Positions 8,772-37,700 of a stretch of 64,000 bases of DNA are shown in pieces (position 1 is the first letter of the stretch; each line of letters begins with the position of its first letter). The DNA is from Amoebophrya sp. A120. Taxonomy: Eukaryota; Protista; Dinoflagellata. The stretch spans positions 2,222,089-2,286,088 of the forward strand of contig CAJINV010000001.1 in NCBI GenBank assembly GCA_905178155.1. The letters run 5' to 3'. The position numbers were made by a program, and so were the translations under genes. The notes below the pieces were generated by a model. The model did no database searches and was not told where the DNA came from. It worked only from the letters and a program-made list of their open reading frames with translations.

Positions 8772-9592
8772 TTATCCCGCGGGTCATCTGCTGTAGAATC
8801 CCGACGGCTTGCTGCTGCAGCTCCTGTGCGCCGGTGGCGTGGAGAACATCGTCCGGCACGACGTAGGAGATGTTAACTGCGCCAGCCCGCGATGTGGAAA
8901 TACTTATGGACCGGAGGAAGTCCGCTACTTTCTGGTCTTTTGCTGTCCCACTCCTCGTATCCAGCGCAAAAGGAATCGCACTCGTTCAATTTGTAATGCT
9001 CTTACTTAGTCTCGCATGACAGATCTGCTTTCCTGCATGACAGATTTGATTTCGTTTTTCCTGTCTGCATGACAAGTTTCATTTTTCCTGTTGCAAAATT
9101 TGTGAAGCGACTCCTGCTAGTGCGATTCTTTTGCGATGCATAAGCCATCGCGCGCTCCCACCCATACGGGGTCCCGACAACGAACATCCGTAACGCCCGG
9201 GTCTGGTTGTTCATTGCGCCGCCTGCCTGCTGCAGGTGGATGAGGGTGTGACGATCCGGCCCCGTCGGAACACTAACATTTGCCGCCACCTCCTTCAATA
9301 TCCTCGCCTGGATTGCCGCCTGTTGCTTGTTGATCAGCTGGCACGCAACGTGGACACGCGCCTCCCACTTGTCCGGGTCCGCACCAATTCCGAGAAGGAA
9401 AAGATGCGCCCCTCCGCCCATCATCACACCCAGTGGTATTCGTGTGTCGGAGCCAAACCCATGCAGCCCCGGACCACCCAAGGCGCTGCTGTTTGCAGTT
9501 GCAGTTTTGCTCGGACACAAAATCGTTGATGAGGGTACGCAAACCCCATGCCACTGCTCCCCTGCCTTCCACTGCATCTCCAAGTGGGTCAC
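8772..9592 (-). pseudogene. Gene fragment with an old family-B introner, running into the 37-bp repeat
   Basis: ORF 9002-9592 (...GWERAM) joins in frame to RSGTAKDQKVADFLRS...QQMTRGIR after removal of 8958-9142. The 5' part is disrupted by CCCTGCCTTCCACT repeats (9549-9657). Confidence 0.45.
8958..9142. mobile_element. Degenerate introner family B (185 bp), TSD eroded
   Basis: TATCCAGCGCAAAAGGAATCGCACT...AGTGCGATTCTTTTGCGATGCATA. Flanks CCTCG/AGCCA share only one base. Confidence 0.7.
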
Positions 9593-11187
9593 GTTCCACT
9601 TTGCCTTCCACCACTCCCCTGCCTTCCACTTCCCCTGCCTCCCCTGCCTTCCACTTGCTCACTGCCAGATGGCACGCTCACGAAGCCCCACCAGGTTTAT
9701 CGACGCCAGCCTGCCTTCAACCGCGCCACCTGGTTTGGCGGCAGTCAGCAGGTGTCCATCAACAGGTGCTGGGCAGACTGACGTATCCGAATGGGTGAGC
9801 TTCGGGATTGGTGTCCGGCGGGGATGAGCTGGGTCGCGAAAGAGTTGGCACTTGTTGCGTCCGCCATGCGGACTACATCCTGGAGGACCTGGAAAGGGGT
9901 GCTGCTTTTGTCCGGCCAAGCCAGTGAAATTCGTATCCACAGTGACACCGACACGCCCGTCCAAGTAAAACCGAAGATCGCCCCGGCATTGCATAACAGG
10001 ACGAAATAAACTTAATTAAATCTTGTGCCTAGCATTACATATAGGTTCCGAAGTCGAGACCTCTTCCGACATGAAGTGGCAACCGTTGCCATAGGCCAGA
10101 TTTGCATGCCACTACAACTCTACGACACACTCACAAAACTGCAACCAAAGTCACATGCACAATCAACATACAAGAACTCTCTGCCGATTTGGAACATCGA
10201 CGAGGCCAATTTGTAAAACGACGAGGGCAGTTTGCGATCGAGACAAAGTGAGTCGAAAATCACACAAAATGCAAAAGACCATGCAATTTTTTATCTCTCT
10301 CATCGATCCGAAAACGAAATTTGTCAACTTTTTGAATTTGTTTTGAATTCGTTTTGAATTGATTTTAATGTAAGGCACTTTGGAGTTAACCCCAACCCAT
10401 GGACGAGATATGATACGACCACATTGACCGACAACTCGGAAAGGGGTGTCCGAAGGGGGCAAAAATGCACCCCCCTGACCACCCCCCTTGCCGGGTTTCC
10501 TCTTCCGGGCGAACGTCCTCGCTGTGGTCCGGTCCCGGAGGTGGCCCAACCACTTCTCGAAGAGCGGGCCTATTCAACATTGCCGGGCCATCTGAGCGAC
10601 AACGCACAGCACGAAGGCGCTGCCGCCTGTTTCGTGTCTTGCTATGAAGGCCTTTTGAAAGCCGAGCTATCACGTTCCTCGTGGAAAAGATGAAGTGATG
10701 CTGTACTTCTGTTGATTTCCGGGTAGTTGACTCCCTGACAAGAGAAAAAAAAATACCCCCCCAAAGTGTGAGCTGACAAAAATGATGCTATTTGCCGATT
10801 TTTCCGCCCTAACATGGACGAGATATGATACGACCACATTGACCGACAACGATGTGCAGTGTCCCCTAGTTCTACGAATTGTTACTTAGAGCTTTAACAC
10901 GCGTTAGCATGAGACGTGGCGAATCTCTAGTGAATTTTGCATGACAAATAGCAGAGGAGACTGCCGGGACATTGTCCCTCTCGCCCTTCTGGGAAGAGCG
11001 TTCTGCACACCGCAGAACTCGCCGGCTATGCGGCAGGCAGCTGGACATGGCCTGGGCGTCGTTCTTTGGCCATGTCTTTTCGTCTTCCTGTGCTTGCAAA
11101 AGAGCAGGCACTGCAGCAGCCGTGGCAAAGACGCCAAAAACAAGAGCCGCGAAGCACATACAGTTTAGGCAAGATGACGGCCCCACT

Positions 11188-11429
11188 TCCCAGGGCCTAC
11201 CTGTGCACTTTTTTGAGCACTTTTCTGCGCTAAAGTTTGCTTATCACGGTCGAAAATGGGCGCCCGGTGAATTTTGGGGTGAATTTTGAAAAAGCCGTGG
11301 GTGAATTTTGGCCCAAGGTGCCTATTCAAAATTCGCTAACGCACGAGAAACTCCGGGTTTTGGTGCTTCAAAAAAGTTTCGCCAAAACAAAAAGCCCCAA
11401 AATTCACCAAGAAGATTCCTGACCTGGGA
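11188..11429. repeat. Small foldback/MITE-like segment with GGTGAATTTTG subrepeats
   Basis: TCCCAGG...CCTGGGA ends. GGTGAATTTTG occurs three times at ~11265-11310, with an inverted copy CCCCAAAATTCACC at ~11395. Confidence 0.4.
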
Positions 11430-12077
11430 GTCACGTCAAAGAAGACTAGAGGACCCGACCAAGATGAGGCAGGAACACAGCTGGGACGAAGTTACAGAGC
11501 AAAGCAGGCGATGCTAGCATCCATTGCAACGCGTCTCCAGATGTTCAGGCCGAGACAGCAACGACCCGTGACGCGACTTCTCTATTTTGAGATATTGAGC
11601 TACTGCCCCTGCCCCCCTTTCCAGGCATGGCCCTCCCTATCGATCCGCCACCATCGAGTCTGTGGACCAACATGGAGTATTGTGTTGTAATACCGGCGCC
11701 ACAAGCCACCTGTGTTGCTTCTGCAGCCCACCAGCAGATGCCCCCCAACCCATGGACGAGATATGATACGACCACATTGACCGACAACGATGTGCAGTGT
11801 CCCCTAGTTCTACGAATTGTTACCGACCTTGACCTTGATTTTTGGAAGCACTTATTGGTATTTTCTTGAACAAAAGAATGCAGCAAAACGAAGAAAAGGC
11901 ACATAAACATATGCGGCTCCTCATGATTTTATTCGCTACGGTCAAACCGCGAGTTGTTGTACCACCAGCATTTACATCTAGGTTTCTATACTGATTGAAT
12001 GATTTACTTTTTCCACCTTTCGTGTCTGTTTCTTTTTTTTATCTACCACTTGACCCAGCAAGGATTTGACAGTCACA

Positions 12078-15000
12078 TCAGCCGAACGTCCCTCCACCGC
12101 CGAAGCCGCCAAATCCACCACCACCAAAACCGCCGAAACCACCTCCTTTGCCGCCCTTGCCTCTTCTGCCGAAAGGATCTCCGAAGGGGTCTAACGGATC
12201 TAGTCTCGGACCTTTAAGTCCCTTCCCCTTGCCACCCCCGCGGCCGTTGCCACCCATCGGATCTAAATCGTCTCCTCCGAACAGTGGGTTATTCAAATCG
12301 GGGTCTCCGATCCCGGGGTTATAGGGGTTTGGGCGTGGATCGATGCGTAGCGGATTATTTCCCGGTCCTCGTGGGGGTACAACGCCAAACAAATCTCTCT
12401 CCGCGTCCGGATTTCTCGGGTACGGGACATTTGGTGGAGGTCTTGGGTCGGCCAGGGGGTTTCGCCCGTACGGGTCGTCACCGGCGAGCGGATCCGGGAC
12501 CCCGAACAAATCGCGCTCGGCATCCGGGTCTCGAAAAGCCGGTGCAGGGTTGAAGGCGCCTAGTGGTATATGAAAATTTAAATTTTTGGGATGAACATTT
12601 AAACTTGACGATCGAACAAGACATTGCTTCATCACGTTTACGTTGGTTCACCGGGTCCGGGGCCCCGCTCTAAAAATACTTACATGCACTTCTCGAAGAG
12701 CCCCATCAAAAGCGAAGAAAAAAAGCACTATACCTCCCCGCGCCGGTCCTGGATCAAAGGGATTCACCGGGTCGTACCATATCCCGGGAGGTACGATCGG
12801 TCCTTGACCCTTCCCACCTCCCTTCCCTGGCCACCAGCCCCCTCTCGGCGGCGGCGGCCATTGCACCCGATTTCTCTCCATTTCCTCGAAATGGCTTCGC
12901 GTCCGCTCCACCAACTTCCGCTCCGTCTCCGCCCGGCCCGCGAGCGTCTTCGCGGCGCGTTCGCACGCGCTTTTCCACTCCTTGGGGGGGACGTCCTGGT
13001 CGGAGGAGCAGAACGAAGAACTCGCGGGATCCGACAGTCGCGCCTGGGTGCGCAGCTCGTTGACGGCGGTTTCGGACAGGTTCGCGGCGTAGAGGGCGTA
13101 CTTGCAGGTTTCGGGGCCGGACAAGTACCGGTCGAATTGATCGAACACGTTTCGTATGAACTGCAAAAGTATCGCACTCGTATAAATGCATGACAAATTC
13201 CCTCAGCATGAGAAATAAAATTTGTGATGCGAATTCACTTTGAGCAAAAAATTTGTAATGCATGACTGCAATACGAGTACGATACTTTTGCACAGGATAT
13301 TTCGCCAGACAAAATTCTGCATGTGCAGGGCCACGCTGCACTGGGTGTACACCAGTTTGCTGGCCTTCTCGACCCGCTATCCTGTGTAAAAACGTCCCCA
13401 CCCCAGAGTTGTCACGCAGATTTACCATGACAGGAACATTTGTGATGCGCAACCCCATGACAGGCATTTTCAATCGTGTTTGGGAACTTGTGATGCTGTA
13501 AACAGGATGAGAAGGTCGATTTGTGATGCGGCTTTCCTTGCTAACTTGCACTACCTTACGGACTGAAACTTGTCATGCGTGACTCCTCAAACTCCTAGGT
13601 TTGTGTTGCAAAATCCCCATCCTGACTCTGGTGTGGGTACGTTTTTACTCAGGATACCCGCCCAAGGGACTTCACGTCAAGGAAAGCCAGCACGGTGTCC
13701 ACAATCTCTGCCGGTAAGTTCTCAAATTTCGGCACGACGAGCCCGTAAAAATACGGGTAGATCACACTGTCGTGGACCTGTAGTGTGATGTATGAATGTT
13801 AAACTAAAAAAACTGTATTGTCAATGAAACTGCTCGGTATTGCTTTGTAGTTGTCATTGTTGACTACACGCACGGGCACTGAGCAAAAACCCGAAATGTT
13901 CACATGATGCCCGAGGTGGTTTTACGACGATGAGAACCAAGATGAAACAAGCCGGAGGTAGTATTCTTTTTCTACATTTTCTTTGTACCAGCTTCTTCAC
14001 GGTTTCAACGCTGTTGTTGCAGCTTTGGGTTCTGTTGTTGCCGACTTGGCTTTGCCCCGCAGCTACGTCCACCTTTAGTAACTGCTGGCCCTGGCAGAAG
14101 ACCAATGCCGTGTTCCCCGAAGTCAAAAACATCAGTTCGAAGGTGCCCCGCCGCGCCTCGTACTTTATGCGCGTCAGCGACTCCGACGTCTCCAGGGTTT
14201 CTGGCGGCGCGCGCATCAACCCGGTCTGCAGGCTCGCGCGGTGCATATCAAATGCAAAAATGTCTGGGCCTGGAAGAATGCAAGTTTATCATGCTTGTCT
14301 GGCATGACTCGAGAATCTGCGTTGCATAGCCACGAAAAGGCCCTCTTACCTGTCATGCAAAAACGCAGTTTGCCAGCATGCGGAATAGATACGAAAGACA
14401 TGGCAGCCAAAAAATTTGTCATGGTGCGTAGCTGCGCATTGCAGTGCGTTTATCATTCACTTTTAGCATTACAAGTCTCCAGACCCAGACAAATTAATTT
14501 GCAATCCATAGTGCACCAGATCGAACACTTCGCGTGGCGTGGTCACTGGCGGCGGCTTATCCAAGTAGATAAAGTCCCCACCCCATATTCAAAAGACGAT
14601 TTGTGTTGCTGGATTCCTGTACACAAATGAACTTTGTATTGCAGCAAGAGCTTGTCGGCATTTTCTAAGCCCATTTATTGGGTACGCATCCGGCTAGCAG
14701 CTGAGCATGAGCAACAAGTCTGACGTAGGCGGAAACGCATGACAGACTCGCTGTACAATGCGCCACACGCGTGCCGTTTGCCTTGCACCCAAGACAAGCC
14801 TGATTTGTGGTCACAAATCAGCATCACAAATTTCCTTTTCGATATGGGGAGGGGGGATTTTTCCATACGATACGGCTGTTCTTCCGCGGGCCTGAAAGAT
14901 GAGGACGCTGAGGTCTGTGGTCCTCTTCCCCCTCCGCGTGAAGATGGCACGAAAGAGGCACTGCTGGAAGAAGAAGACGTGGCTGCGCTTCCTCTGGTGG

Positions 15001-16419: not shown

Positions 16420-17658
16420 TCACCAATTGATGATTTTGGTCGCGAAAATGAAGCTGACCATGAGGAAAAAAACCACGACGCTGACCGCGAACAGGAACAC
16501 CTGCGTGAAGAAGCCCATCTTGCTGCTCCACAGCATGTCCCGCGCCGTTTGGTTCTTGGCCTGCAGGCTGTCCGTCCGCTTGTCAAAATCTTCGTTGATT
16601 TTGTCCAGCAACTGGTTGTCTTCCTGCAGCCTCCCGCCAATACCGTGCGCAATCCCCACCATCTGCTCCACGGAATTCGCTACCGTTGCCAGCATCTCCT
16701 CCCGCTCGGCCTCGTCCAATTTTTTCTCGTCATCTACTCGATAGGACGAGGCGTTCGGCGTCGACGGGGCAGTGCTGAGCGCATCATGTACTACACCACT
16801 GCCTTTCATTGCCGTTGTTTTCATATTCGAGCCGGAGGTCGCAGAAGTTGCAAGAAGCCTCTGCTTTCGATATTCTTGGAGCGACAGACTGCTACTCACC
16901 ACTTCTGCAACCACAGCAGGGGGTGAAGCTGAAGAAGAAGATCTATTCCCGGTTGTCGTGGCTGCTATTCCTATTATGTCTACTCCATCACTTGTTATTT
17001 CAGTCCCCGGCTTTTCTGTCGCAAAGCTCTGCAAGGTGTCAAAGTCGCTTTCTACGCCACTGCTTCGAGCAGGTGCACTGGCAAACTCATCGCTTGCAAT
17101 AATTATATCCGCTTCATCCGCATCATCAACATCATCTGTCAACAAACCAGTCTTGCTATTCCTGCGGGAGGACGACGACGCCCCGCTTGTTATCAGCCCG
17201 ACTTGCTGCAGCTGCTCTTGATGTTGCGATCGAGTTTTCAAGTGCTGCAGCCGCTGCGCTTCCCAGCGGGAAATCCGCTCCTCCACCTGCTTGCGCTGGG
17301 GCCCAAGGGGCATATCCTGTGCAAAAGTATCGCACTCGTATTGCAATCATGCATTACAAATCTTCTTTCTAAGGTAAATCTGCATTACAAATTTTATTTC
17401 TCACGCTGAGGAAATTTGTGATGCATGTATACGAGTACGATACTTTTGCAATGCATAGGGCAAACAAGGCAACAATTCCTGCACGAAGGACTGCACATAA
17501 ACGTCCACCGTAATCTCGTCGCCCGCAGTTTCTGGAAACTGCTCCAGGTAGCGCAGGAAGCCGGTAAAATCTTCCACCGTGTCCCTCTGCGCCCGCAGCG
17601 GGTCGCTGAAGCTGCCGTTTGGCAGGTGCTGCTGATACGCCGGAGCGACGGATGCCAT
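16420..17658 (-). CDS. Tail-anchored SNARE, Use1-like (Qc)
   Basis: C-terminal SNARE heptads EREEMLATVANSVEQMVGIAHGIGGRLQEDNQLL followed by a terminal TM helix. Two ORFs join in frame (PCLP/LGP) across introner 17313-17457. Confidence 0.7.
17313..17457. mobile_element. Introner family B (145 bp), TSD GGGCA
   Basis: Family B TIRs. GGGCA at 17308 and 17458. Interior is inverted relative to 13155-13299. Confidence 0.92.
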
Positions 17659-18548: not shown

Positions 18549-21500
18549 CTATAAAGAGCCACGCGACAGTGCCACGGAATTTTCCGACCGTAACGCACAC
18601 CAGAGGCGATCGAGTGTGTCCTGCGAGTTCTCGCCCTCTTCCAAAGCGTCCAAAATTCCCACAATTGTTTTTTGCCGTTCGCGGTCGTAATCCGCACGGC
18701 TGTCCACGCTGGCGTGCAGCATAGACGCTGTGGTTTCCCGCAGCTTATCCACTCGTCCGACCTCGGTGCTTCTGCCATGATCCCAAGCGGAGGTTGTTGT
18801 AAAGCGATTGTCTGTTCCCGTGTTGAAGCGTGCTGCAAAATGAGGATCTCCTGTCATCTGATCCCCGGGCACCATCGGGTTGAAGAACGTGACACCGCGC
18901 TTACTCCTACCCGCACCACCAGCAGCCCCGCCGTCACGAAACAAGTTGTGGTGGCCGCTGCCGCTCCGCGCCGCCGACGTCAGGCTACTACTCGCGCCGA
19001 CACGCACCGATGTGCGCCTGCTGGTGCCGCAGTGTTGACCACCTGCCTCAGTCGTAGCACGTCCTCCGCCAGGATTAGCCACTAAGGTGCGCCGCACCTG
19101 GAAATTCAACCCAGTAGATCCGGCGGATTTATTAGTACTTGCAACTACGGCCGTCGAGCGGCTTTGTGCCATGGTCAAGGGCGCGATATCATCGCGCAAC
19201 TCGTCCGAGTCGTCACTAGTACCCTCCTGCAGCTCCAGCGAGCGCTTGTTCCCGCTGATCCTCTTCGTGGTTCGGGATAAAACCACCAGCGCTTGCCGCG
19301 GCGCGGTGAAGAAAGGAAGTAGTGCTACTTTCGCAAGCTGTTTTTGAAACCAACTGGCAGGATCGGCGAAAAAGAACGATTTGTCGCGCCTTTGCTGCAA
19401 GTCACTGCTCAGGGTTTTCATCCACGCAGGAGTGCGCGAAGAGTCTCCATGCGACGACGCGCGGTGCGACACGGCTGCGTCCTCCGCAGCCTTCATGTGC
19501 GTATGAATTGCAAAAGTGTCTGGGTCTGGAAGGTGGCAACTTGTCATGGTAAATCTGAAGAATGCAAAAATCTGTATTGCATGAGTGCCAAAAGCTGTCC
19601 ACTTTTGACCAAGATGGACAGGAGTTTCTCATGCAGGTGGATGGGCATTGCAGAGACTTCGCAGAGTCTGTCGTGCTAAGTCCCGCATTCCAGACCACTC
19701 AGGGCTCATGGAAAATCTGCATGACAAGTTTACACTTTTCCAGACCCAGACATTTTTGCACTTGATAGTGCGCCGCCAGGTCCGATTCCAAGCTCGTGAT
19801 GTTTACGTTTTCAAACTCCCCCTCGTCCTCCTCCAGGTCGTCGGCAAAACTGCGGTCCTCGACCACGTGGCAGTTTTTCGCCCGGTCGCGCTGCCGGTAC
19901 ACCCAGCCGCAGAAGATCAGGATGAAGAGCACGTACACGCCGAACAGGAACCGGATCAACCAGTCGCGCAGGATCAAAAAGTCGCCTTGTGGGCCCTGGA
20001 CCCCGAACAGCGCGTGCAGGCCTCCCTGCAGAAAGTTCACGAGCAGCGTGGCCAGAATGAAAATGTCCAGGTAGGTGAGGTACCCGATGTTGCCAACACT
20101 CTCGCCGGCGCTCGACTTGAAGGACGCGCATCCTGAGTAAAAACGTCCCCACCCCAGAGTCAAGAAGGGGACTTTGCAACACAAACATAGAAGTTTTGGG
20201 ATTCACGCATCACAAATTTCAGTCCTCAGTGTAGTGCAGGTTAGCAGGGAAAAACGCATCACAGATCCATGTCCATCTGCTCTTCCTGGTTGATGCAGCA
20301 TTACAAATGCCAAAACACGACTAGAAACGCCTCTCATGAAGAGGCGCATTACAAATGCTCCTGTCATTGCGAATCTGCATGGCAACTCTGGGGTGGGGAC
20401 GTTTTTACAAATGATAACACGTTGGTCAGAATCACCATCACCACCACTGCGAGCCCGTCCCGCGGGTTGTCGATCGCGCCCAGCCGCTCCTCCACCCAGG
20501 CGAAGCTGAAAAAGCCGAACAGGTATGGATTGCAAAAATGTCTGGGTCTGGAAGATTTCAACTTGTCATGCTGTCTTTGGATTCTACAATAAATCTGTAT
20601 TGCATGAACGGCAAGAGAGGTCCAGTTTTTGTCATGGCCAGAGGGCATTTCTGATGCGGTATAGGCATCAGGAAGCTCTCATAAGATCTGTGATGCTAGG
20701 GCATGCATTACATGCATCATGGATCATACAAAATATGGGACGCTGGTCGTATCAGATTGCGTAAGTTGTAAAATCAGATTACGAAATGCAATCAGGTTAC
20801 TGAAATCAGATTACGAGACGCAATCAGGTTCTACCTAAGCGAACGCCAGGCGGCCCCAGCGGCCCGCCGGAATCAGTGGCGCGCCCAGCCGACCAAGGGG
20901 CTGGCCGACGGGATCAACGAGAACCACGACGGGGCAAGAACACAGCCAGACGAGCGGGCAAGCCGCGGGGGCGCATTGACTGGCGCAGCAACGAGAAGAG
21001 GGAGGCGTCGGCCAGGGCAGCCGCCGCCGGCCGGCCGGCCGGCGGCGGCTGCCCTGGCCGACGACCAGAAACCCCAAACCCTAGACCCCCAACCCTAACC
21101 CAGACTCCTGATTTCACTGATATTCTGAATTCAGTAACTTGATTGCACAACTAACCTGATTGTAATAATAAATCTGGGTCATGGTGCGTTCCACGTACCC
21201 AAATTCCACGTACCCAAATCTGCGCACCCAAATGGGTACTGTTTTTGGGCACCCGTGGGTGCCCAAATCCCGGCGGTACGAGGTGGCGTTGCGCGTTCCA
21301 GACGAATTGTTCAGAACTTTTATCTTGCGATTTTTGTTTTGTTTTTTCAGGATCGCAATAAAAATAAAATTTCAAAACTTCGCGGCCCAATCCGCGAAAT
21401 GTTAAAATTTAATTTTTATTGTCAAGAAAAAACACTTCTCTCGTAGCGCAAACTTTGCAGAAGAGTTGAATTCTATTGCAATAAAAATAAAATTTAGAAA

Positions 21501-24500
21501 CTCCGTGCCTTGAGCCGCGAAATCGGAGCGGAAAACCCACCCGGGTGCCGTTGGTTTTCTTTCTCATTCCTACCAACTAGACACGGCAGGCTTCCCAGCC
21601 TGGAAACCCTAAACGGGGCACGGGGGCGGAAGGACAATGGCCCGGGCAGGCTTCGGAGCGGAAAACCCACCCGGGCGCCGTCTTCTTTTTCATTCCTACC
21701 ACCTAGGCGCGGCACGCTTCCGGGCCCGAAAACCCTAAACCGGGAAGGGGGGGCGGGTAGACAATTACCAGGGCAGGCTTCATCGGAGTGGAAAACCCAC
21801 CCGGGCGCCGTTCTCTTTTTCAATTCATTCCTACCCCCGCGGCGCGGCAGGCTCTCGAGCCCGGAAACCCTAAACGGGGCACGGGGGGCGGAGAGACAGC
21901 TACCCGGGCAGGCTTCGGAGCGAAAAACAAGCCCAGGCGCCTTTTTCTGTTTCATTCCTACCACCGAGGCGCGGCAGGCTTCCGAGCCCGGAAACCCTAA
22001 ACGGGGCGCGGGGGGCGGGAGGACAGTTGCCCGGGCAAGCTTCGGAGCGGGAAACCCGCCCGGGCGCCGTTTTCTTTTTCATTTCTATCACATAGGCGCG
22101 GCAAGCCTTCGAGCCCGGAAACCCTAAACGGGGCACGGGGGGCGGGAGGACAGTTACCCGGGCAGGTTTCGTAGCGGAAAACCCGCCCGGGCGCCGTTTT
22201 CTTTTTCATTCCTACCACATAGGCGCGGCAGGCCTTCGAGCCCGGAAACCCTAAACGGGGAGGGGGGGGCGGGGGGACAGCTACCCGGGCAGGCTTCGCG
22301 GCGGAAAACCCACCCAGGCGCCGTTTTCTTTTTCATGCCCACCCAACAAATAGGCGCGGCAGGCTTTGGGGCCCGCAAACCCTAAACGGGGCACGGGGGG
22401 CGGGGAGACAGTGCCCCTAGCAGGCTTCGGAGCGGAAAACCCAAGACGGCGCCGCTGTGTTTTTCATTCCTACCAACTAGACACGGCAGCCTCCCGGGCC
22501 CACAAACGGACCCCAAACGGGGCACGGGGGCGGAAAGGCAGCGACCCGGGCAGGCTTCGTAGCGGAAAACCCGCCCGGGCGCCGTTCCCTTTTTCATTCC
22601 TACCCCCGCGGCGCGGCAGGCTCTCGAGCCCGGAAACCCTAAACGGGGCACGGGAGGCGGAGAGACATTTACCCGGGCAGGCTTCGGAGCGGAAAACCCA
22701 CCCAGTCGCCTTTTTCTGTTTCATTCCTACCACCGAGGCGCGGCAGGCTTCCGAGCCCGGAAACCCTAAACGGGGCTCGGGGGGCGGGAGGACAGTTGCC
22801 CGGGCAGGCTTCGGAGCGGGAAACCCGCCCGGGCGCCGTTTCCTTTTTCATTCCTACCACATAGTCGCGACACGCCCTCGAGCCCGGAAGCCCTAAACGG
22901 GGCGCGGGGGGCGGGAGGAAAGTTATCCGGGCAGGCTTCGGAGCGGAAAGCCCGCCCGGGCGCCGTTTTCTTTTTCATTCCTACCAAATAGGCGCGGCAG
23001 GCCTTCGAACCCGGGAACCCTAAGCGGGGAGAGGGGGGCGGGGGGACAGCTACCCGGGCAGGCTTCGGGGCGGAAAACCCACCCAGGCGCAGTTTTCTTT
23101 TTCATTCCTACCAAATAGGCGCGGCAGGCTTTCGAGCCCGGAAACCCTAAACGGGGCACGGGGGGCGGGGAGACAATGCCCCAGGGCAGGCTTCGGAGCG
23201 AGCGGAAAACCCAACAAGGCGCCGCTGTCTTTTTCATTCCTACCACCTAGACGCAGCAGGCTTCCGGGCCGAGAAACCCTAAACGGGGCACGGGGGCTGA
23301 AAGACAGTGACCCGGGCAGGCTTCGTAGCGGAAAACCCGCAAAGGCGCCGCTTTTTCTTTCATTCCTACCACCTAGGCGCGCAGGCTTCCGAGCCCGGAA
23401 ACCCTCCACGGGGAACGGGGGCCGGATAGACAATTACCCGAGCAAGCTTCGGAGCGGAAAACCCACCCGGGCGCCGCTCTCTTTCTCATTCCTGCCTCCT
23501 AGGCGCGGCAGGCTCCCTAGCCCGGAAACCTTAAACGGGGCGCGCGGGGCGGAAAGACAGTTTCCCGGGCAGGCTTCGGGGCGGAAAACCCACCCGGGCG
23601 CCGCGTTCTTTTGTTTGTTTTCATTCCTATCAGCTAGGCGAGGCAGGCTCACGAGCCCCAGGCCTAAGCGGGGCACGGCTGGCGGAGAGACAGCTACCCG
23701 GGAAGGCTTCGGGGCGAAAAACCCGCCCAGACGCCTTTTTTTTTGGTAGCGCGGGGCCCCTTCCCTAGATGCCCCCCTCCCCTAGATGCCATGTGGAGCC
23801 CGGCGCCCTAGATGCCATGTTGAGCATGGCCCCTCGTTCGCTCCTTGCAGGAGTTTTGGGCCCCCTAGATGCCATGTTCGTTGAGCATGGCACCCGTGTC
23901 AAGGAATCATGACAACCACAGTACGCCGCCCTCTTTCCACAACAAGTACCCCCAGGCCAAAAATAAAAGGAACGACATTTAGTGCACTGCATTGCAAACC
24001 GCCGCGCATTTTCTAGGCGGGCGCGAAAGGGCGATCCGCTTTACGGGACCGGCGGGAAGATCGAGCGCGGGACAGGAATGTAGAGGAGCCACCCGGGGGG
24101 TGGACCAGTGTGAAACAACGCGAGGCAAAGCACAGCTATGCTCTGCGGTCTCGCGCGTGCTGCGCAATGGCTTTGATAACGAGGGGGAGGACGAGAACGA
24201 CAGGCGTTGAGTCTAAAAATCTTATTTTTATTGGAGGAGTGGATGCGAAATTCGTCAGCTATATAATTTTAATCCGCGAATTTTCAAAATTTAATTTTTA
24301 TGGGCCGGAGAAAGCGAAACTGTCGGAGACGTGGTTCGCGAGGAAACAAGGCAAATCCGCGAAAGTTGGAAATTTTATTTTTAATTTTTTCATTGAAATT
24401 GAAAAAGCGACAACCTTTTTTGCAGTCCCAAATGTGTCTTGTAGCGTGGGGGTTCACGTCCGGAAAGAGGGCTCATTGGTTTGGGTGCGTGGTTTTGGGT

Positions 24501-26957
24501 ACGTGGATTTGGGTACGTGGATTTGCTTGGGTACGTGGATTGCCAGGATACCATAAATCTGATTTCATTTCGATAATCTGATTCGAACCGATGAAGCCCA
24601 AAATATGCATCACAAGTCGCGCATTCTTCCAGACCCAGACATTTTTGCATTTGATAACAGGGAGGTGAGGACGAGCAGAAAAAAGTAGTTCCACACAAAG
24701 GGGACCCACTCCCGCGCGATCCGCCACTGGCAACGATGCAGCACGCCCACCGGGAGGCGCTCCACCGACACGTCGAAGCTGTCCGGACACAGAAACCAAT
24801 CCGGCATGCGGAACGCCCACTCAAAGGACCGGTCAAGCTCCTCCTCGGGGATCTCGTCAAATTCCCACGTGTCACTGTCCTCGCAGTACAGGTCAATGCT
24901 CAAGTCCTGGACGTCAAACGGAAACTGGCGCGCATCCATGTTGCTCTGCATGGTGCCGTGGAAAATTTTCTGCGAAATCGCCTCGTAAATCACCCGTGTA
25001 GTGTATCCTGAGTAAAAACGTACCCACGCCAGAGTTGTAATGCAGATTTGCAAAGACAGGAGGACTTGTAACGCGCATCCGCATGAGAGCCATTTCCAAA
25101 CGTGTTTTGGAATTTGTGATGCTGTGAACAGGATGAGCAGATGAATCTGTGATGCGGCTGCACTTGCTAACCTGCACTATATTACTGCAGAGTGCAACTT
25201 GTCATGCGTGACTCACAAAACTCCTAGGTTTGTGTTGCAAAATCCTCATCCTGACTCTGGTGTGGGTACGTTTTTACTCAGGATATAGAAGTCTGGGCAG
25301 CAGCCGGCTTGTGGTCCTTCTGCTTGCTACTTTTGCCGATATTCTTTGTCGCAGAACCCTCCCCGGCTGTGGGGGCTTGGGCAGATGAAAAAGGATGGTC
25401 TTGATGCAGTTGCTCCGTTCCAAGCATCTTCCCTGAATGCTCTTGCACTTGCAAAGGCAATGCTCCTGCTGCCTCGTCACCTCCAAGGACAGGAGGAGCG
25501 TCGGTACTACCAGGTGCTGCTGCTGGGGAAGAAGCTATTGGATTCATAATCTTGGTTTGTCGCGCTGTCACGGTTGGTCGGCGAAAAGATCCCGCGCTGT
25601 TCAGCTGTTCTGCAACTTCCACTTGCAACCGTCGCGCAGGAAGAACCGCAAGAGCACCACCAGCGCTCCGTGAGGTCGTGTGCAGCTCCGGATTTTGTTC
25701 GCCACCCGAATGTCGCGACAGCACCTTGCTCAGGGATTGACTCTCACTGGGCCGCGGGGACGACTCCAAAAATTCTTCTTCTTCTTCGATAACTTCTGTG
25801 ATGGTCCGTTTCCACGCAGTCCACTCGGTGTCCACTTCCTGCAAGTTGTGGCAGTTTTTGTACAGGAACTTGGGCATCTCGAAGGGACACTTTTCCCGGC
25901 GCCGCGCTGCTAAGAAACCGCCCCCGCTGGTACTACTGTGGCCAAGCTCCTTCTGCATGTGGAGCCACTCTTCTTCCGATACCTCTCGATGCAACCGAAG
26001 CTTGCAAAAAACCCGATAGGTCTCTTCCGGCAGATTGATCTGGCTCACGCGAAACGGGTGGAAGCTAAGCCGGACCTTTTTACGCTGGTGGTGTCCTCCA
26101 TCAGCAGGTCCGAATGGTGCAGCTGCTAGACCGGCTTCGGTCCAAATGGAGCAATCTTCACTCCCGCGCGAGTCGCGCGGGAGTGAAGATTGCTCGTCGC
26201 CAACCGTACTAGCGGGTTTGGTGTTGGTCAAGGCGTCGAGGACCTCCGCACCGCCGGGGACTTCCTCGAACAACGTCTCGTTTTCTCGGACCGCCATGAG
26301 TTTCGAGCCCGCACGTGAAGTAATATGGTCTAAATCAGCTTGCATCGAAGCACGGGCTGCTCCCTCCTTAATATTCTCGCTGCATTGATGCTGCAGCCCA
26401 CTTTGATCTTCGCTGGGGACGGAGGGATGAGCGGGTGGACCGGGACGAGATTCCTGTTCTCGCTGCGGAATAGGGTCCAAAAGCGTCGGAAGCATTTGCT
26501 GGTGACCGCCCGGCGCTCCTCCTCCAGAGCCGCCACGACCTATTCAAGAGCTACAAACCATCTGCACACTCACTTTTGCATTTGCGCACAGCGCACTTAC
26601 TTGAGAATTACAAAAAGTTCTGTCTATGCGAAAACTTGATGCTGGACGATATGCGATAATCAACAACAAACTTGCAAAAAGGTGACTTTTGTGATGGTGA
26701 TTTCTTGTTGCATACCACCTCCACCGTGACCAGTGCCTGCCCCCATGACTGGCGTCGCGGCCAGGGCCACACTCGAGTCGAGGTCGCGGCTGTGGGTCTT
26801 CACCAGGCTTTTGTCAGGCGCCAACCATTGCTGTTGCGCTTCCTTGTGGAGGTGCACAGCTGCCATCACGCCGATGCCCGTTGGCTTCAAGCCGATGTGG
26901 TTTCGCACGCTCGGAATCGCGGCAATGGGTTTCATAGACATGTGGAAGAAGTTGTCC
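18549..26957 (-). CDS. Cys-less pentameric ligand-gated ion channel (pLGIC) subunit; 5' end uncertain
   Basis: Spliced product contains VRLSFHPFRVSQINLPEETYRVFCKLRL (beta1-2), MDARQFPFDVQDLSI (Pro-loop), PDW, IARE..FVWNYFFLLVLTSL/FGFFSF (M1), LAVVVMVILTN (M2), IGYLTYLDIFIL (M3) and M4. In-frame joins across introners 25004, 20524, 20129 and 19502. A probable GT-AG intron lies at ~26540-26716. Confidence 0.8.
19502..19767. mobile_element. Introner family A (266 bp), TSD GTGCG
   Basis: Family A TIRs. GTGCG on both sides. Join LAAH/MKA. Confidence 0.92.
20129..20416. mobile_element. Introner family C (288 bp), TSD ACGCG/ACACG
   Basis: CATCCTGAGTAAAAACGTCCCCACCCCAGAGT...ACTCTGGGGTGGGGACGTTTTTACAAATGATA. 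Join LTN[V/A]SFK. Confidence 0.9.
20738..24598. mobile_element. Non-autonomous foldback/Mutator-like element (3861 bp), 9-bp TSD CAAAATATG
   Basis: CAAAATATG at 20729 and 24599; GG...CC ends. Modular inverted arms: AATCAGRTT repeats, CCACGTACCCAAA repeats (21191-21232 vs 24480-24540) and AT-rich blocks (21355-21420 vs 24270-24385). Confidence 0.8.
21524..23735. repeat. GC-rich minisatellite, ~17 copies of a ~127-bp unit, most containing AAACCCTAAA
   Basis: GGAAACCCTAAACGGGGC recurs about every 126-135 bp (21602, 21863, 21990, 22117, 22244...). Near-identical multi-unit blocks lie ~770 bp apart. Confidence 0.93.
25004..25285. mobile_element. Introner family C (282 bp), TSD TAGTG/TAGAA
   Basis: Family C TIRs; interior closely similar to 13378-13656. 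In-frame join AQT[S/T]TRVIY. Confidence 0.9.
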
Positions 26958-28469: not shown

Positions 28470-31069
28470 TCAGCCACCCACCTCAGCCTTCGACAGGTCA
28501 TGATGCCACACCGGCCAGAGGGACTGGACGTCACACGGCGCACGGCACAGCGGACAACTCCGGTTCGCACTCACTACGAGGCGGAAAAGTCCGCCCCAGC
28601 CCAATTTTCAAAAATTTCAATATGTGGCTTTAGTAGTCCCGGTTAGAGGAGACAATCGGGAACGCGACCAAGCCAGTGGTCGCTGAATGCGGGGGCGCGC
28701 TTCGGGCGCTCCGCCTGCCTGGGCAGGGGCCAAGCGTCGCGCCGCGCCATATCCTTGCGCTCCTATTTGGCGAATGCGCATGGTGTGGCGCACTTTTGGG
28801 CGCCGACTTTCCTGGCCGTCGTATATTTGTGCGTGAATGCTTCACAATGTTTTCCAGAAAAGTCCGCCCCAGGACGAACAAGGAGGCCGAATCTGGTACC
28901 CGTCGACCCTGGGGCGGACTTTTCTTGATCGGGGTACTCAGGTCGGGATTGGCCTCTCCCAGAAAAGTCCGCCCCAGGCCGAACGGGCACTGCGCCAAGT
29001 GGTCGGTCGGAGAGGGCAAAAGAGGCGAAAAAACATGACACGGGGTCCCCGAGCCTCTGGGGCGCTATCATTAATTCAAGGCCAGTCCTGGACTGGCCCC
29101 ATTTCACACTGCGCGCCGGGCGGGAAACTGCCTTTCCAAGCTGCGCGGGTTGGGGCGTACAAGTCGCCACGAAGTCAATAATGGGAGTCGATCTCGCGGA
29201 GAAGAATACCGAGACGCAGCAGCGACAAACGGGGCATGCTTTCCGTGCGAAAAGATCTCGCGCAATGAAATTTTTGAAAATTGGGCTGGGGCGGACAACT
29301 CCGGTTCGCACTCACCCACGAATAGGCACAATCCCAGCAGAAAGCGCATCGGCGGGAAAAAAAACTGCAAGTCAGAGGACTGTAGTTGTTATTTTGCCTT
29401 GTAGTTATTGGACCTTGCGCGTGCTGCCCCGCCTTCTTGGTTATGGTTTCGCATAGGCATGACAAAAATTACTGTTTTCTGTTTGCCTTCAACAGCTGGG
29501 CCGCGTTTGTGAACTACAACCAGCTTCCCGCAAAGGCGTGCCATGACAAGCAATTTGGCCCTATAGATACTTACTCTATTTCTTCGTCGAGCAGTTTTCT
29601 TCTGTCTGCAAAAGCGCGAGCCTCCATCAAATAAATGTATACAGAATGGTACTACATCGACATCCAGTGTACACCAATGACGCAGTATAATTCTCCTCGA
29701 ATAACACGTGTCCACACTTAACGGACGTCGGTGCTCGGATTTCGCCAAAACAAATGTTGCAATCGATGCCGCCCGGCCGCGCCGTTCGTGGTGGTAGGGA
29801 CGGTTTCTTGCGCAGTTCTTCTCTTCGCAGCAGTCCTGGTGCTGCAGTAGTGTTTCGTTCAAATTTCTCTACTGTAGAAGAAGTGCTGCCGTTCATTTCA
29901 TGCAGATCTAGTCCGCCTGCCGCAGGAGCATCTATCGCTGGTTGACGATCATTCCTTTCGCTGCTAGAACGTGATTGTGACGTAGAATTAGCTGGTGGCT
30001 TCGAACCTTTTGCATGGATGATGCTGGTTTCAGCAGACAACATCCTGCTCTGTCTGTCTACTTCGTCTTCTTTTCCTTCGCTGAAGCTAACCCGGGGACC
30101 ACTTTTTGTCGGATGTCTTGAAAGCACAATATCTCCTATTCGTCGCTTCATCTCCAGGATCACTCGCGGAACAAGCACCTCATGCATCGGCGGCGCGTTC
30201 TTGTACAGCCGACGTAGGTACAGCGCTACCTGCACGACACACAGCGCGCTAAGTGCGTAAAAGTACCGCTGGACCATCGTTGTCGGCTTATTAACATCAT
30301 TCTTATCCGCTGCTGTCCTTCCCCGCCGTTCCTCGTATCCAAGCGAGCGCCGCCGCCAGCCGAGTAGCCGGTGCGGCAGACTTTCGTACATCCCGACAAG
30401 AAAGAAGGATGCACGGTTCAGCGTCAGCGCCAGTTGAAGTGCGTCATTGAGGAATTGACTTGTCCTCGGCGAGAGTCTTGATGCGCCCAGTACAGCAGGT
30501 AGAAGTTGGTTCGTCGCAACTTGCAATCCTGAGAGAAACACCCGGGAAAGAAATCCTGGCACGCGCTCCGCCCGAAAGAGATAATTATCTGGAGGCCAGC
30601 CACTACCGCTAGGCTTTCCTGTTTCATTCACTGGCGACCCAGGCCCGACTATTTCCGGTTCTAGTACTTCTCTCTGCCCCTGCTGAAGCTGATGTCGGTA
30701 GTTCCCGGAAACCGTAATATGCCGCGCAACCACTGGCGCCAGGTCCGCGTACTCTTCCCCGAGGGTGCGCGGTCCGGCCAGGAGGAGAAAATCCGCAAGC
30801 GCGTTGGCGACGCGCGGCAGGACGGCGCGGTACCGGTGGCACGTTTGGCTGCCAAAAAGGGTCTCCGCGAACTGGGCGAACCTCGCCCGGAATCTCTCCC
30901 GGTACTGCTCATCCTTCTGACTCGCCGCCAGGAGGTCGGTTGTGTCAGCATAGGGTGGGTACCAAATGGTCTTGTTATTTTCAAGTGCAGTCGAGTTCTT
31001 GGGTGGAATGAAGGGGGCACTAGAAGAAGAACTAGAACTAGACGAACTATCTGGCGCTATCTGCAACAT
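28470..31069 (-). CDS. PEX10: Peroxisomal RING peroxin PEX10
   Basis: Pex2/12 N-domain motifs ASQKDEQY, RTLGEEY and FFLVGMYESLPHRLLG. The RING is rebuilt from three pieces: CNICFGEIRAPTSVKCGH / xFCWDCAYSWVSANRSCP / LCRAPCDVQSLWPV. Stop at 28470. Confidence 0.88.
28575..29290. mobile_element. 716-bp inverted-repeat insertion with a 25-bp exonic duplication inside the PEX10 RING
   Basis: GCGGACAACTCCGGTTCGCACTCAC at 28550 and 29291. Perfect 31-bp IR at 28589-28619 / 29266-29296. Internal AAAAGTCCGCCCCAG motifs occur in both orientations. Confidence 0.8.
29347..29703. mobile_element. Degenerate introner (357 bp, F-like), TSD AAGCG/ACACG
   Basis: CATCGGCGGGAAAAAAAACTGC...GCAGTATAATTCTCCTCGAATA, with internal CATGACAA motifs. 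Removal joins CGH to xFCWDC. Confidence 0.75.
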
Positions 31070-31786
31070 GCTTCGTGATGGAAATTCATCGGCTAGGGGT
31101 TAGGTAGGCACACGATTTGATATTTTCGGTCAGCTAATGGTACTGCTTTTTGTTCTGCTTGTGGTGCAATATTTGCCGTTTGGCTTTGTACATTGTTTTT
31201 AATTTCATTTCCTCACAACTTGAACTTCGGGAGAAAAGTATAAAGTCAGACTTTTCCTGATAGATGAAGATCGCAACGCGAAACTTACGTCGAAGCCGCA
31301 CCCGAAGCCCGCTGTCATTCATTATCTATACGCTACGTAGAGGAGCCAATGTGATCACGAATCGTGCGCGCGTGCAAAGCAAAAAAAACGCTTCAACAAC
31401 CGTCATCAAAAGAAAGTCAATCTTCGACATTGCCTTCGTCATATTCGACAAGTTAGGGCTAGCGCGGAAGCGGATCTTTTCGCTTACTTTTGGTACGGCC
31501 TTCGTGGGGAAATAAGGGCTTTTGACGATGAACATCAGACAGTTGTTTTAAATCACTCGAGAAAAGACGCCGTGTGCATACTTGGGTTTTGCTTTTCCTT
31601 ACTGCGTGCTTCACGCCGAGTGCTGCATCGTATGTTGCAGCGCCGGTGAGTCCTTTGTGTCCGTGTCTTTTTCTTCTGCTTGTTGAAATGGAAAAGCAAA
31701 AAAGAATTGCGAGTGCGCTTCTTAAGGTGAGCGGGAAAAGAAAAAAAGAAAAAAATTTCGTCAAACGCAACCGACTCTCGCCTTAC

Positions 31787-34700: not shown

Positions 34701-37700
34701 TGCCAGTTGCAGAGCAGCGGCGCTGCCAGTCGAAGATGCGGTGGGCACCATCAAGGACCCCCCTCCGGATGTTGAAAAGGAGCCAGCAGAAGAAAACGCA
34801 GCAGCAGGTGGTTTTTGGTTCCAATACTCCAATTTCAAATGCAAAAGTGTCTGGGTCTGGAAGAGTGCGCGACTTGTCACGCAGCTTTTCTATGACCCAT
34901 GAGGTCTGGAATGCAGGACTTAGCATGACAGACTCTGCGCGATCTCTCTCATGCCTATCCTGCATGAGAAACTCCCTCCCGACTTGGTCAAAACTGGACG
35001 ACTTTTGGTAGTCATGCAACACAGATTTTTGCATGCTTCAGATTTAGCATGACAAGTTGCATTCTTCCAGACCCAGACATTTTTACATTTCATATCCAAC
35101 TCATAGAACCCGCAGGTGTATGGTTCGTTCGTCTCCGTGTTTCGTTCCGCGCAAAAGGATTTCAGCGGTTCCGCCGTGCGCCGCGGGTCGGTCAGTTGCA
35201 AAAAATTTCGCATCACATCCACGTACCCGGGGGACGTCACGGGCGGCAGCGACCGCGCGCCACACGCGATTTGGTTTCCGCACCCGTCGGGCTCGAACCC
35301 GCAGCCCTTGTTGTGGCTGCACTTCGCCTTCGGCTGGCACACACACTGGTTCTGCACGCACACGCCTGGGTTGTTCGTCAGGGAGTTGTAGCTTTTTTTA
35401 AGCCTGTTTGAAGCAGTAGAACTTGATGTAGTTTGAGTTTCACTTTTTTCCGCCGCACAAGATTGCACGTACTTCTCCAGTGTCCGCGTCAGAGCCTCCA
35501 CAATCTTCGCCGCGGATTTCTGTGCGACGAAAGGGAGCGCGGAGTAGTCCACGGTAGCAATGACGTCTTCTGGCAGGGCGGAAGGACTTCTGTTGGTACG
35601 ACCTCCGGACGACGAGGACGACCCAGAGCCAGAGGTCGAAGAAGATGATGAAGCTCCAGGTAGTAAAAAACGCACCTCCCCGATTGGCGCTGAAGGTTCC
35701 TCTGCCATCTTCGCGGCTCCACCTGCAGTACTTCCCGAGGCGGATCCAGCTGAACTCGTGCTTGTTCCACTGAACAACGGGGTTGAAGATGTACTACGTG
35801 CTATCGAACTACCTGGAGCTTGGTGTGCCAAGGCAGCAGCTCTACTCCGCTTCTTTGTGGAAAAAGCCGCAAAGAAGTGTTCTTGCAACAGCGATGTACT
35901 ACCAGAAAGACCACTTGGCGCATTCGACGACCCCGAGCCGGACTTTGCTGCTACTTCCCTGTTCTCCGCGTCCAGGGCTGCCTGCTGCTTCAACGCCGCC
36001 TGGCGTAGTAAGTTGTGGTTCCCGCAGTACACGAAGCCCCCGCAGCCGTCCTCGATGAACCCACAGTCGAAGTGGTCGCAGGAGGTCACACTGCTTTTGC
36101 AGTCCGATTTCACCATGACCAGTTCCCACTGTTGCGACGCGGAGTTCGGGTCTGACGGCTTGGTGGAGGTCACGGTAACAAAGCTGTTGTTCGCCTGTAG
36201 TCCAGGAGCCACTGGAACGGTATCGGAATCTAGCGCCTCTCCATTCTCGTGCTTTAAAATTCGCACAACGTTGCCCTTCACCCATCGCACTAGCCACTTT
36301 TGCGACCGGTCACGGTGTTTCATTTTTGAGAGGTACGTTGCGTGCTTCTGATTTGCGCTTCTTGATGATGTGGTTGCACTCTCCCTGCTGCCGAAATTTT
36401 TCGTAGTGCTCACACCTATTGTAGTGTAGTTTCTTGCGCCAGTTGTTGTACTAGCAGACATCGACACAAACGAATCTAGGAAGAGCGCGTCCGCGTCGCC
36501 CCCCGCGAGAAGCGAGTACAGAGCCCCATGCCCGATTGGCTTAATGCGCCACGCGGTCGTCGTGCTGCGAGCGAGTGCAGATTTCAATATTCCCGCCTCT
36601 TGGGTAGATTCGTGCTGCTCAGCTACAACCGCGCTGGCGCTGTCGTAAGAACCTTCGTCGTGCTGGTCCTTGTGCTGTAGAAAGGAACGAGATCTCTTTC
36701 TGCTCTCTTCCTGCTCCGACACCAGCGACGACACTGGCCTTGCAATGCTGGTGACTGAGGAAGACGCGCTACTGCTAGCAGCTGGTGGTCCTTGTGCAGG
36801 AGTAGGCCCAGCAGGCGATGCACTTACGATACCTGACTGCGAAGGAGCACCAGTCACGGCACGAGCCTGAGACTGACTGCTTCCGAACGAAGCAGCTGCA
36901 TCAGTCGCGACCTGCCCCTCTGCGGGGGCTTCTGCAGAAGCTTTATTCCCGGTAATAATCCGAATCGGGGCCCTTGAAGTAGCACCATTCATCGTCGAGG
37001 ACAACGCTGCTTCGCTTCCTGCTGAGCCCGCTGGTAGTTTCATTTCACTTGGAGGTCCGTCGACGAGCAGCAGCCCCGCCAGGGGACTAGCGGCGGAAGC
37101 CATACTGAGGTACTTCCCCGAGGACAGCTGTCTCAGGGCGTAGTACCCATCAAAGCTTGGCTTCTTCTGGATGGGCAGCGTGACCCACTTCTGCGAAAAG
37201 TTCTCCTGCTTGTCGCTAATCCCAGCCGCCGTGGTGTGCAGCAGACGGACAGCGGCGGTGGAACTGGAAGCTTCATTTGCCGCATGACGCTTTTCTTTTT
37301 TCGCGGTATTTGTGGATGTGCGGAGTAGTTGCTTCTGCTTGTTTAACTTGAAATTCTCCTCTTCGTGCTGCTGTACCATGCTCAAAGGTCCCACCGTCGG
37401 AGCACGCCCCCCCGCTGCCGATGCCACAGTTGGCGCTGCCAGTTGTGTGGTTGTACTAGACTCGCTGCTTCCACCGAGGAAACCAGTACTGGAACCACCC
37501 TGAAGCCCGGCTGAACTACCACCCGGCACCGCTGCAGAACCAGTGGTCAGCTGCGGCCCTACATCAAACGCGTCCAGTACCCGGCCCGTCGAGCACTGTA
37601 CGATGCGCCACTCGGCGCTGTTCCCGCTGTTCAGCTTCAACGGCTGCATATGGCGTTCTCAAACGTTACATTCTCAACTGTTACATGGGTCTGTCATGCA

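What the first reader, a model, noticed from the sequence alone, without database searches (positions are those of the whole stretch)
20524..24656. Russian-doll intron: 3.9-kb foldback element nested in a 263-bp introner
A second element with a 9-bp TSD (CAAAATATG), GG...CC ends and long modular inverted arms sits inside a family-A introner whose TIRs, TSD and flanking exons remain intact. If the gene is expressed, the TIR stem works across 4.1 kb, possibly helped by the foldback arms bringing the ends together. Introners would then act as safe havens for other TEs. The left arm itself holds an extra ~350-bp block (20835-21180) with inverted AATCAG repeats.
Basis: partly seen in the sequence, partly recalled or inferred. 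Interest (0 to 1): 0.8.

Follow-up and report, generated by a model that had tools for sequence, protein, structure and literature searches.

The report
Triple-nested transposons inside one odd intron
In the marine parasite Amoebophrya, a 263-base mobile intron without normal splice signals holds a second transposon that holds a third, stretching it to 4.1 kb; RNA data indicate the whole stack is likely still cut out exactly, so the cell likely reads only the intron's paired ends.

Summary
The nesting is real but has three layers, not two. A 263-bp Amoebophrya A120-type introner (TAT...ATA ends, 5-bp duplication) splits a membrane-helix exon of a minus-strand ion-channel-like gene. Inside it is a 476-bp MITE (20738-24598; GG...CC ends; 9-bp duplication CAAAATATG). 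That MITE's right arm is split by a third element of 3,376 bp (21177-24552; GG...CC; 9-bp duplication ATAAATCTG), which carries a 2.2-kb array of 127-bp repeats. A stand-alone 458-bp relative of the MITE, with its own 9-bp duplication, was found in a metagenome contig. An RNA-type contig leaves exactly the 444 nt predicted for precise removal of the 4,138-nt intron, and the annotated protein reads through the junction; the joint itself was not displayed. Folding controls give no sign that the inner arms help. No transposase was found, so Mutator versus Merlin is open; Mutator-type GG/CC elements are already listed for A120. The parts are known kinds. The value is a natural 15-fold length test of an unexplained splicing system.

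The parts
24657..24998 (-). Upstream exon (342 nt) of the host gene, ending ...LLVLTS/L
   Evidence: ORF; in protein P0001; length fits the RNA contig gap
24657..24661 (+). 5-bp target duplication of the introner, copy 2 (ACAGG)
24608..24656 (-). Layer 1: introner, 5' part of the intron; almost all of it is the terminal inverted repeat
   Evidence: matches sibling ends at 84-91%; pairs with 20531-20580 in the fold
24599..24607 (+). 9-bp duplication of layer 2, copy 2 (CAAAATATG)
24562..24598 (.). Layer 2: outer 37 bp of the MITE's right arm (ATCTGATT modules, ends CC)
   Evidence: contigs from other loci join 21144/21166 to 24556
24553..24561 (+). 9-bp duplication of layer 3, copy 2 (ATAAATCTG)
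21177..24552 (.). Layer 3: 3,376-bp non-coding element with GG...CC ends; arms about 21177-21232 and 24480-24552 built of 14-15-bp CCACGTACCCAAA modules
   Evidence: no Pfam hit in its ORFs
21523..23744 (+). 127-bp tandem array, 17.3 copies, with a 6-unit higher-order duplication; most units carry the telomere-like AAACCCTAAA
   Evidence: units six apart 87% alike against 82-84% at other lags; 11 of 11 window copies of the motif lie here
21340..21521 (.). AT-rich CCGCGAA...ATTTTTA modules in layer 3 (also 24200-24400); related modules occur at other loci
   Evidence: raised summed contig depth and rearranged joints
21168..21176 (+). 9-bp duplication of layer 3, copy 1 (ATAAATCTG)
20738..21176 (.). 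Layer 2: body of a 476-bp MITE; left arm of AATCAG(A/G)TT modules 20738-20833, GC-rich core, 58-bp perfect palindrome 21006-21063, telomere-like run about 21067-21103, inner part of right arm 21101-21176
   Evidence: 458-bp relative in L002
20729..20737 (+). 9-bp duplication of layer 2, copy 1 (CAAAATATG)
20524..20737 (-). Layer 1: introner, 3' part of the intron, with the TAT+7+AAA terminal repeat
   Evidence: motif as in PMC7789003 section 11
20519..20523 (+). 5-bp target duplication of the introner, copy 1 (ACAGG)
20417..20518 (-). Downstream exon (102 nt), beginning FGFFSF...

Best explanation
Three mobile elements are nested here, each with its own target duplication, and the 4,138-nt stack is likely removed from the host RNA in one step by Amoebophrya's non-canonical splicing, which likely recognises the paired ends of the outer introner and ignores what lies between. 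Shown by sequence: layer 1 is a 263-bp TAT...ATA introner with a 5-bp duplication in a coding exon; layer 2 is a 476-bp GG...CC MITE with a 9-bp duplication, inserted just inside the introner's terminal stem so that the stem stays whole; layer 3 is a 3,376-bp GG...CC element with a 9-bp duplication, inserted 37 bp from the MITE's right end and swollen by a 127-bp array. Inferred: layers 2 and 3 are non-autonomous cut-and-paste elements moved by a transposase encoded elsewhere, more likely Mutator/Foldback-type than Merlin-type (about 65:30). They are neutral passengers, tolerated because they leave the outer ends alone. The inner arms are not needed for removal.
For: Structure. Layer 2 exists without layer 3: joints 21144->24556 (1 contig each in X1, X2, X8) and 21166->24556 (2 contigs each in X1, X2), and a 458-bp relative in L002 with GG...CC ends and duplication CAAAACAAA, 73% identical over 409 columns. 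Insert present in DNA: a 1,076-nt contig with 0 differences bridges the right junction in X1 and X2, at depth 45.2 and 24.9, like other listed single contigs. Removal: in X3, record 3 (2,309 nt, 0 differences in the 3 listed pieces) maps 25286 to position 900 and 20123 to position 1345; the 444-nt gap equals the two predicted exons, 342 + 102. Protein P0001, annotated in Amoebophrya sp. A120, reads LTSLFGF. None of the six possible cut placements gives GT-AG on the coding strand (flanks). The outer stem is predicted for the real RNA and for 5 of 5 shuffled inserts. A Mutator family with GG/CC ends and 8-9-bp duplications is listed for A120 (PMC12130899 Dataset S2, fam65).
Against: The joint row for this intron was not among the 15 of 27 joints shown, so removal is read from coordinates. 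X3 is only guessed to be RNA (it does skip canonical CT..AC introns) and is a different sample from the DNA runs. The three raw-read RNA runs (X9-X11) laid no reads on these exons. Contigs joining 20728/20729 to 24599/24600, the empty-site form, exist in all 4 runs; they are most simply siblings of a very large family, but an empty allele at this locus is not excluded. The left junction is crossed only by one listed record with 30 letters on its short side, below the tool's 31. The DNA runs may be the source of the assembly. No transposase was found in 140 ORF searches. A 4-kb minimum-energy fold says nothing about folding during transcription.
Confidence: 0.72

Rival explanations
1. Stepwise, inside-out removal (a non-canonical twintron): layer 3 and layer 2 are each cut out at their own hairpin ends, restoring a short introner that is then removed.
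For: The predicted fold nests all three stems. A Mutator-type GG/CC family in A120 (fam65, 4 copies) is itself listed as making introns with non-canonical 3' ends.
Against: No joint at the inner ends with this locus's letters is among the 15 of 27 joints shown for X3; the 20734->24621 joint carries other letters and fits a sibling. The outer stem does not need the inner ones in the model. Contigs drop rare intermediates, so this test is weak.
Confidence: 0.1
2. The spliced RNA comes from cells with an empty or shorter allele, and the 4.1-kb allele is spliced poorly or not at all.
For: RNA and DNA runs are different samples. Joints of exactly 3,870 nt exist in the DNA runs.
Against: Exon pieces in X3 show 0 differences in 8 of 8 listed pieces. 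The insert's unique contig has the same depth as other listed single contigs. In two of the runs the 3,870-nt joint fits only 5 or 8 of the 9 duplicated letters, as siblings would.
Confidence: 0.1
3. One 3.9-kb foldback element with long modular arms that pull the intron ends together.
For: Modules do lie in mirrored order, and the predicted fold pairs them.
Against: A second perfect 9-bp duplication with GG...CC ends; relatives lacking the inner 3.4 kb; arms of only about 45-110 bp; 5 of 5 shuffles keep the outer stem. A pre-assembled layer 2+3 composite that jumped once is not excluded.
Confidence: 0.05
4. The junction in cDNA is a reverse-transcriptase jump across the base of a strong hairpin between 5-bp repeats, not splicing.
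For: Hairpin plus short direct repeat is the known setting for template switching (own knowledge, not tested here).
Against: All four introners of this gene must go for a 1,001-aa frame to open, and over 60% of this genome's introns are non-canonical.
Confidence: 0.03

Closest known systems
Introner elements / non-canonical introns of Amoebophrya sp. A120 (Farhat et al. 2021, PMC7789003; read: abstract, sections 5, 10, 11, 12, 32, passages of others, one supplement search)
   Same: TAT + 7 nt + AAA terminal repeat, 5-bp direct repeat, non-GT-AG ends, repeated family; the host protein is annotated in that genome.
   Different: That analysis kept only introns of 40-1000 bp and never uses the word 'nested' in text or supplement. 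This copy is 4.1 kb and holds two further elements.
Mutator-type introner family fam65 of A120 (Gozashti et al. 2025, PMC12130899; read: passages, Dataset S2 parts 1 and 16 and search hits)
   Same: Same genome, GG/CC ends, 8-9-bp duplication, a few hundred bp long.
   Different: fam65 is about 627 bp and forms introns itself; layers 2 and 3 are passengers.
Mutator/Foldback elements such as Tm1 of Meloidogyne (PMC3169594; passages read)
   Same: 9-bp duplication, unequal outermost bases, arms made of a variable number of 13-15-bp repeats, MITE-like derivatives, nested insertions.
   Different: Tm1 is tied to a Phantom-type MULE transposase; none is known here. Layer 3 carries a 2.2-kb direct array.
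Merlin transposons, including those of Symbiodinium (PMC8101967; passages and one supplement row read)
   Same: GG ends, 8-9-bp duplication, arms of 24-462 bp that can be very imperfect, internal tandem repeats (a 163-bp one in Sy.k_F2).
   Different: No IS1595-type transposase here; that survey found no Merlin hit in Amoebophrya AT5.2, another strain.
Nested introners of Micromonas (PMC3879977) and long non-conventional introns of euglenids (review PMC11282704); passages read
   Same: Introners inside introners are on record; hairpin-bounded non-canonical introns reach several thousand nt.
   Different: Micromonas introners are spliceosomal and nest within their own kind; here unrelated 9-bp-duplication elements are stacked in a non-canonical intron.

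Membership tests
Amoebophrya A120 introner element | Inverted repeat starting TAT, 7 variable nt, then 3 or more A | tested here: met
   TATGGATTGCAAAAA and its counterpart; definition
Amoebophrya A120 introner element | Direct repeat of 3-5 nt at the exon borders | tested here: met
   ACAGG on both flanks
Amoebophrya A120 introner element | Repeated family | tested here: met
   12 siblings aligned at 61-84%
Amoebophrya A120 introner element | Non-canonical ends on the coding strand | tested here: met
   No placement of the cut gives GT-AG (flanks); the GT...AG seen on the + strand is antisense to the gene
Amoebophrya A120 introner element | Removed from mRNA | tested here: met
   Indirect: 444-nt gap in X3 record 3 and protein P0001; joint row not displayed
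Mutator/MULE/Foldback (layers 2 and 3) | 9-bp target duplication | tested here: met
   3 of 3 insertions examined
Mutator/MULE/Foldback (layers 2 and 3) | Composite arms of short tandem modules with unequal outer ends | tested here: met
   definition from PMC3169594
Mutator/MULE/Foldback (layers 2 and 3) | MULE transposase in the element or in a partner with the same ends | not testable with these tools
   None in the window; no genome held
Single long-armed foldback of 3.9 kb | Arms of hundreds of bases that pair along the element | tested here: not met
   Best left-right matches 43-46 nt; centre is a direct array
Merlin | GG ends, 8-9-bp duplication, arms of 24-462 bp | tested here: met
   definition
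Merlin | DDE_Tnp_IS1595 transposase in the element or a partner | not testable with these tools
   None in the window; none reported for strain AT5.2; A120 not searchable
Twintron (stepwise removal) | Intermediates lacking only the inner element | tested here: inconclusive
   Contigs only, 15 of 27 joints shown; raw-read runs did not cover the gene

The most novel reading that the evidence does not exclude
A three-level non-canonical twintron: the two Mutator-like inner elements are themselves excised from RNA at their hairpin ends, inside out, before the introner goes. Amoebophrya's machinery would then remove any terminal-repeat transposon, whatever its family, and nested stacks would be built and cleared layer by layer.
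Probability: 0.1. Interest if true: 0.78.

Novelty: new variant of a known kind. Interest (0 to 1): 0.42.

Why it matters
How Amoebophrya removes most of its introns without GT-AG and without a detectable U1 is an open question (PMC7789003). This locus is a natural mutant: the intron is 15 times longer and its interior is replaced, yet the product appears exact. That points to the ends as the signal and gives a ready RT-PCR target for telling one-step from stepwise removal. It also defines two uncatalogued 9-bp-duplication element families, one shared with another genome. It does not overturn anything: nested transposons, nested introners and long hairpin introns are all known.

Tried and rejected
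No whole genome was held, so copy counts and a transposase hunt outside the window could not be run. Rfam: 0 hits in 64 kb, so the 127-bp unit is no catalogued RNA. Pfam: 0 transposase families in 9 + 131 ORFs. Raw RNA runs X9-X11 gave only introner-end matches from other loci. No RNA holder was on record. The array core was not found in viral contigs. L001 was a 23-nt chance match. A coding origin for the MITE core was tested: mismatches by codon position 9/11/17, not convincing. A fourth layer inside layer 3: the 8-10-bp scan gave only array-derived pairs. The GT...AG reading on the + strand was rejected because the open frame and the annotated protein are on the minus strand. Paper searches for a prior description found none for this arrangement; one search returned 0 papers. 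Subscription papers, including Roy et al. 2023, were not seen, and files 13-14 of the PMC12130899 supplement were not searched. Look-ups of earlier findings by place and by sequence were empty.
Full report
Setting. The window carries many short elements with TAT...ATA inverted ends and 5-bp flanking repeats: one search lists 19, of which 18 are 145-300 bp and one, this one, is 4,133 bp. Their end motif matches the published description of Amoebophrya A120 introners (PMC7789003 section 11). An exon beside the finding hits one protein, annotated in Amoebophrya sp. A120 (P0001, 99% identity). The host gene lies on the minus strand, has four predicted membrane helices and resembles pentameric ligand-gated ion channels (Atlas score 0.94 to clusters in which 16-28% of members carry PF02932/PF02931; weak PDB hits at E 0.046 and 0.81; no Pfam hit of its own). 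That label is a lead only.

Layer 1. The element runs 20524-24656 between two copies of ACAGG. Without the insert it is 263 bp and 61-84% identical to 12 of 12 siblings aligned. On the + strand its ends look like a perfect GT...AG intron, but that strand is antisense; on the coding strand none of the six cut placements gives GT-AG (flanks).

Layer 2. CAAAATATG occurs only at 20729 and 24599, exactly where sibling alignment breaks and resumes, and two siblings carry a single near-identical 9-mer there. The self-comparison does not bear that out: the best left-right matches are 43-46 nt and 2.2 kb is a direct array. DNA contigs then showed joints from 21144 and 21166 straight to 24556, meaning shorter relatives exist elsewhere in the genome. 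A pattern scan of metagenome contigs returned 2 loci; 1 (L002) holds a true relative (E 5e-36): 458 bp, GG...CC ends, 9-bp duplication CAAAACAAA, arms of AATCACGTT modules, 73% identical over 409 columns, no inner element. So layer 2 is a stand-alone MITE of about 470 bp. Several variant contigs cover it in the DNA runs (up to 9 at one site).

Layer 3. At the point predicted by those joints lies a second perfect 9-bp duplication, ATAAATCTG (21168-21176, 24553-24561), around 3,376 bp that begin GG and end CC. Of 834 candidate 9-bp pairs in the window, layers 3 and 2 rank first and second, and their arm scores exceed all 500 shuffles each. Layer 3 has arms of 14-15-bp modules, AT-rich sub-terminal modules that recur at other loci, and a 127-bp array with a six-unit duplication; 11 of 11 window copies of AAACCCTAAA lie in that array, and A120 telomeres are TTTAGGG/TTTGGGG. 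Its interior and arms are covered at about single-contig depth, so no close second copy was seen at 85% likeness. It encodes no recognisable protein.

Is the insert real DNA? A 1,076-nt contig with no differences bridges the right junction in X1 and X2, and exact contigs cover parts of the array. The left junction is crossed by one listed record with 30 letters on its short side, one under the tool's threshold. Contigs with the empty-site join also occur in all 4 runs; the family's summed depth there is over a thousand times that of a single contig, and in two runs only 5 or 8 of the 9 letters fit, so siblings are the simpler reading, but an empty allele is not excluded. These runs are one sample and may be the assembly's source.

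Is it removed? In run X3, which skips canonical introns and other introners and so behaves as RNA, record 3 places 25286 at position 900 and 20123 at position 1345. The 444 nt between equal the two predicted exons, 342 + 102; keeping even the empty introner would need 712. P0001 reads LLVLTSLFGFFSF across the site. The joint row was among 12 not shown, X3 is another sample, and the three raw-read RNA runs did not cover the gene. I put precise removal of the long allele at about 0.8.

Mechanism. Shown: three insertions, each with its own duplication; layer 2 landed at the inner edge of the roughly 55-bp terminal stem and left it whole. Predicted: the 4.2-kb pre-mRNA folds with all three stems nested, but the outer stem keeps the same 36 pairs with 5 of 5 shuffled inserts, so the inner arms add nothing in an equilibrium model. 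Inferred: the non-canonical machinery reads the outer ends and cuts in a fixed register. Two earlier scan notes propose one base before and four after the element; the imperfect duplications of two other introns of this gene, read against P0001, allow that register but do not single it out. The order of events (in place one after another, or a pre-built composite that jumped) cannot be told.

Family. GG...CC ends with 9-bp duplications fit both Mutator/Foldback (PMC3169594) and Merlin (PMC8101967). Modular arms with unequal outer bases, and a listed A120 Mutator family with GG/CC ends, favour Mutator; the internal array fits Merlin; no Merlin was found in strain AT5.2. Without a transposase, membership stays open.

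Novelty. The original study kept only introns of 40-1000 bp. 'Nested' does not occur in its text or supplement, nor in the main text of PMC12130899. In the latter's Dataset S2, A120 families whose typical element is 200-300 bp show end coordinates of 2,700-13,900, which I infer to reflect long, probably nested, copies; so such stacks may be common and simply undescribed. Nested introners are known in Micromonas and kilobase hairpin introns in euglenids. Verdict: a real, well-supported three-layer stack, a new variant of a known kind, useful as a test case for an unexplained splicing system. Interest 0.42.

Noticed in passing
window 26149-26207: A 47-bp near-perfect palindrome in an exon of the host gene. 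P0001 lacks 16 in-frame codons there and X3 record 3 starts to match at 26159 with 26 other letters before it: a 48-nt mini-intron or a reverse-transcriptase skip.
   Followed up: partly
window 28551-29317: Another modular element-like stretch between genes: 31-bp perfect inverted repeat (28589-28619 / 29266-29296), a roughly 25-bp direct repeat at both ends and internal AAAAGTCCGCCCC modules.
   Followed up: no
window 42692-44383: 138-bp tandem array (about 10-12 copies) inside a 645-codon minus-strand frame, so probably a 46-residue coding repeat; a family-A introner sits at its edge.
   Followed up: no
window 20129-20416: An introner of the second family with one degenerate end (ATG for ATA) and a 4-of-5 duplication that still appears to be removed in X3 record 3 and P0001.
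   Followed up: partly
window 10813-10885 and 11751-11823: Exact 73-bp direct repeat about 940 bp apart.
   Followed up: no
window 20731-20906 (run X7, record 21): Another copy of the MITE's left end in a different flank; its match starts 7 letters inside the 9-bp duplication, which may hint at a preferred AT-rich target. Two of the three duplications seen begin CAAAA.
   Followed up: no
L002 384-747: 17-bp tandem array of palindromic AAATATTT units, unrelated to the window.
   Followed up: no
window, other genes: All ORFs with clear Pfam hits are on the minus strand: Hikeshi-like (2560-3243), Use1-like (16423-17346), Pex2/Pex12 (29630-31099), ricin-B-type lectin repeats (34923-40123), RING (41304-41942), pseudouridine synthase (50925-52721), EF-hand (60528-61034).
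   Followed up: no
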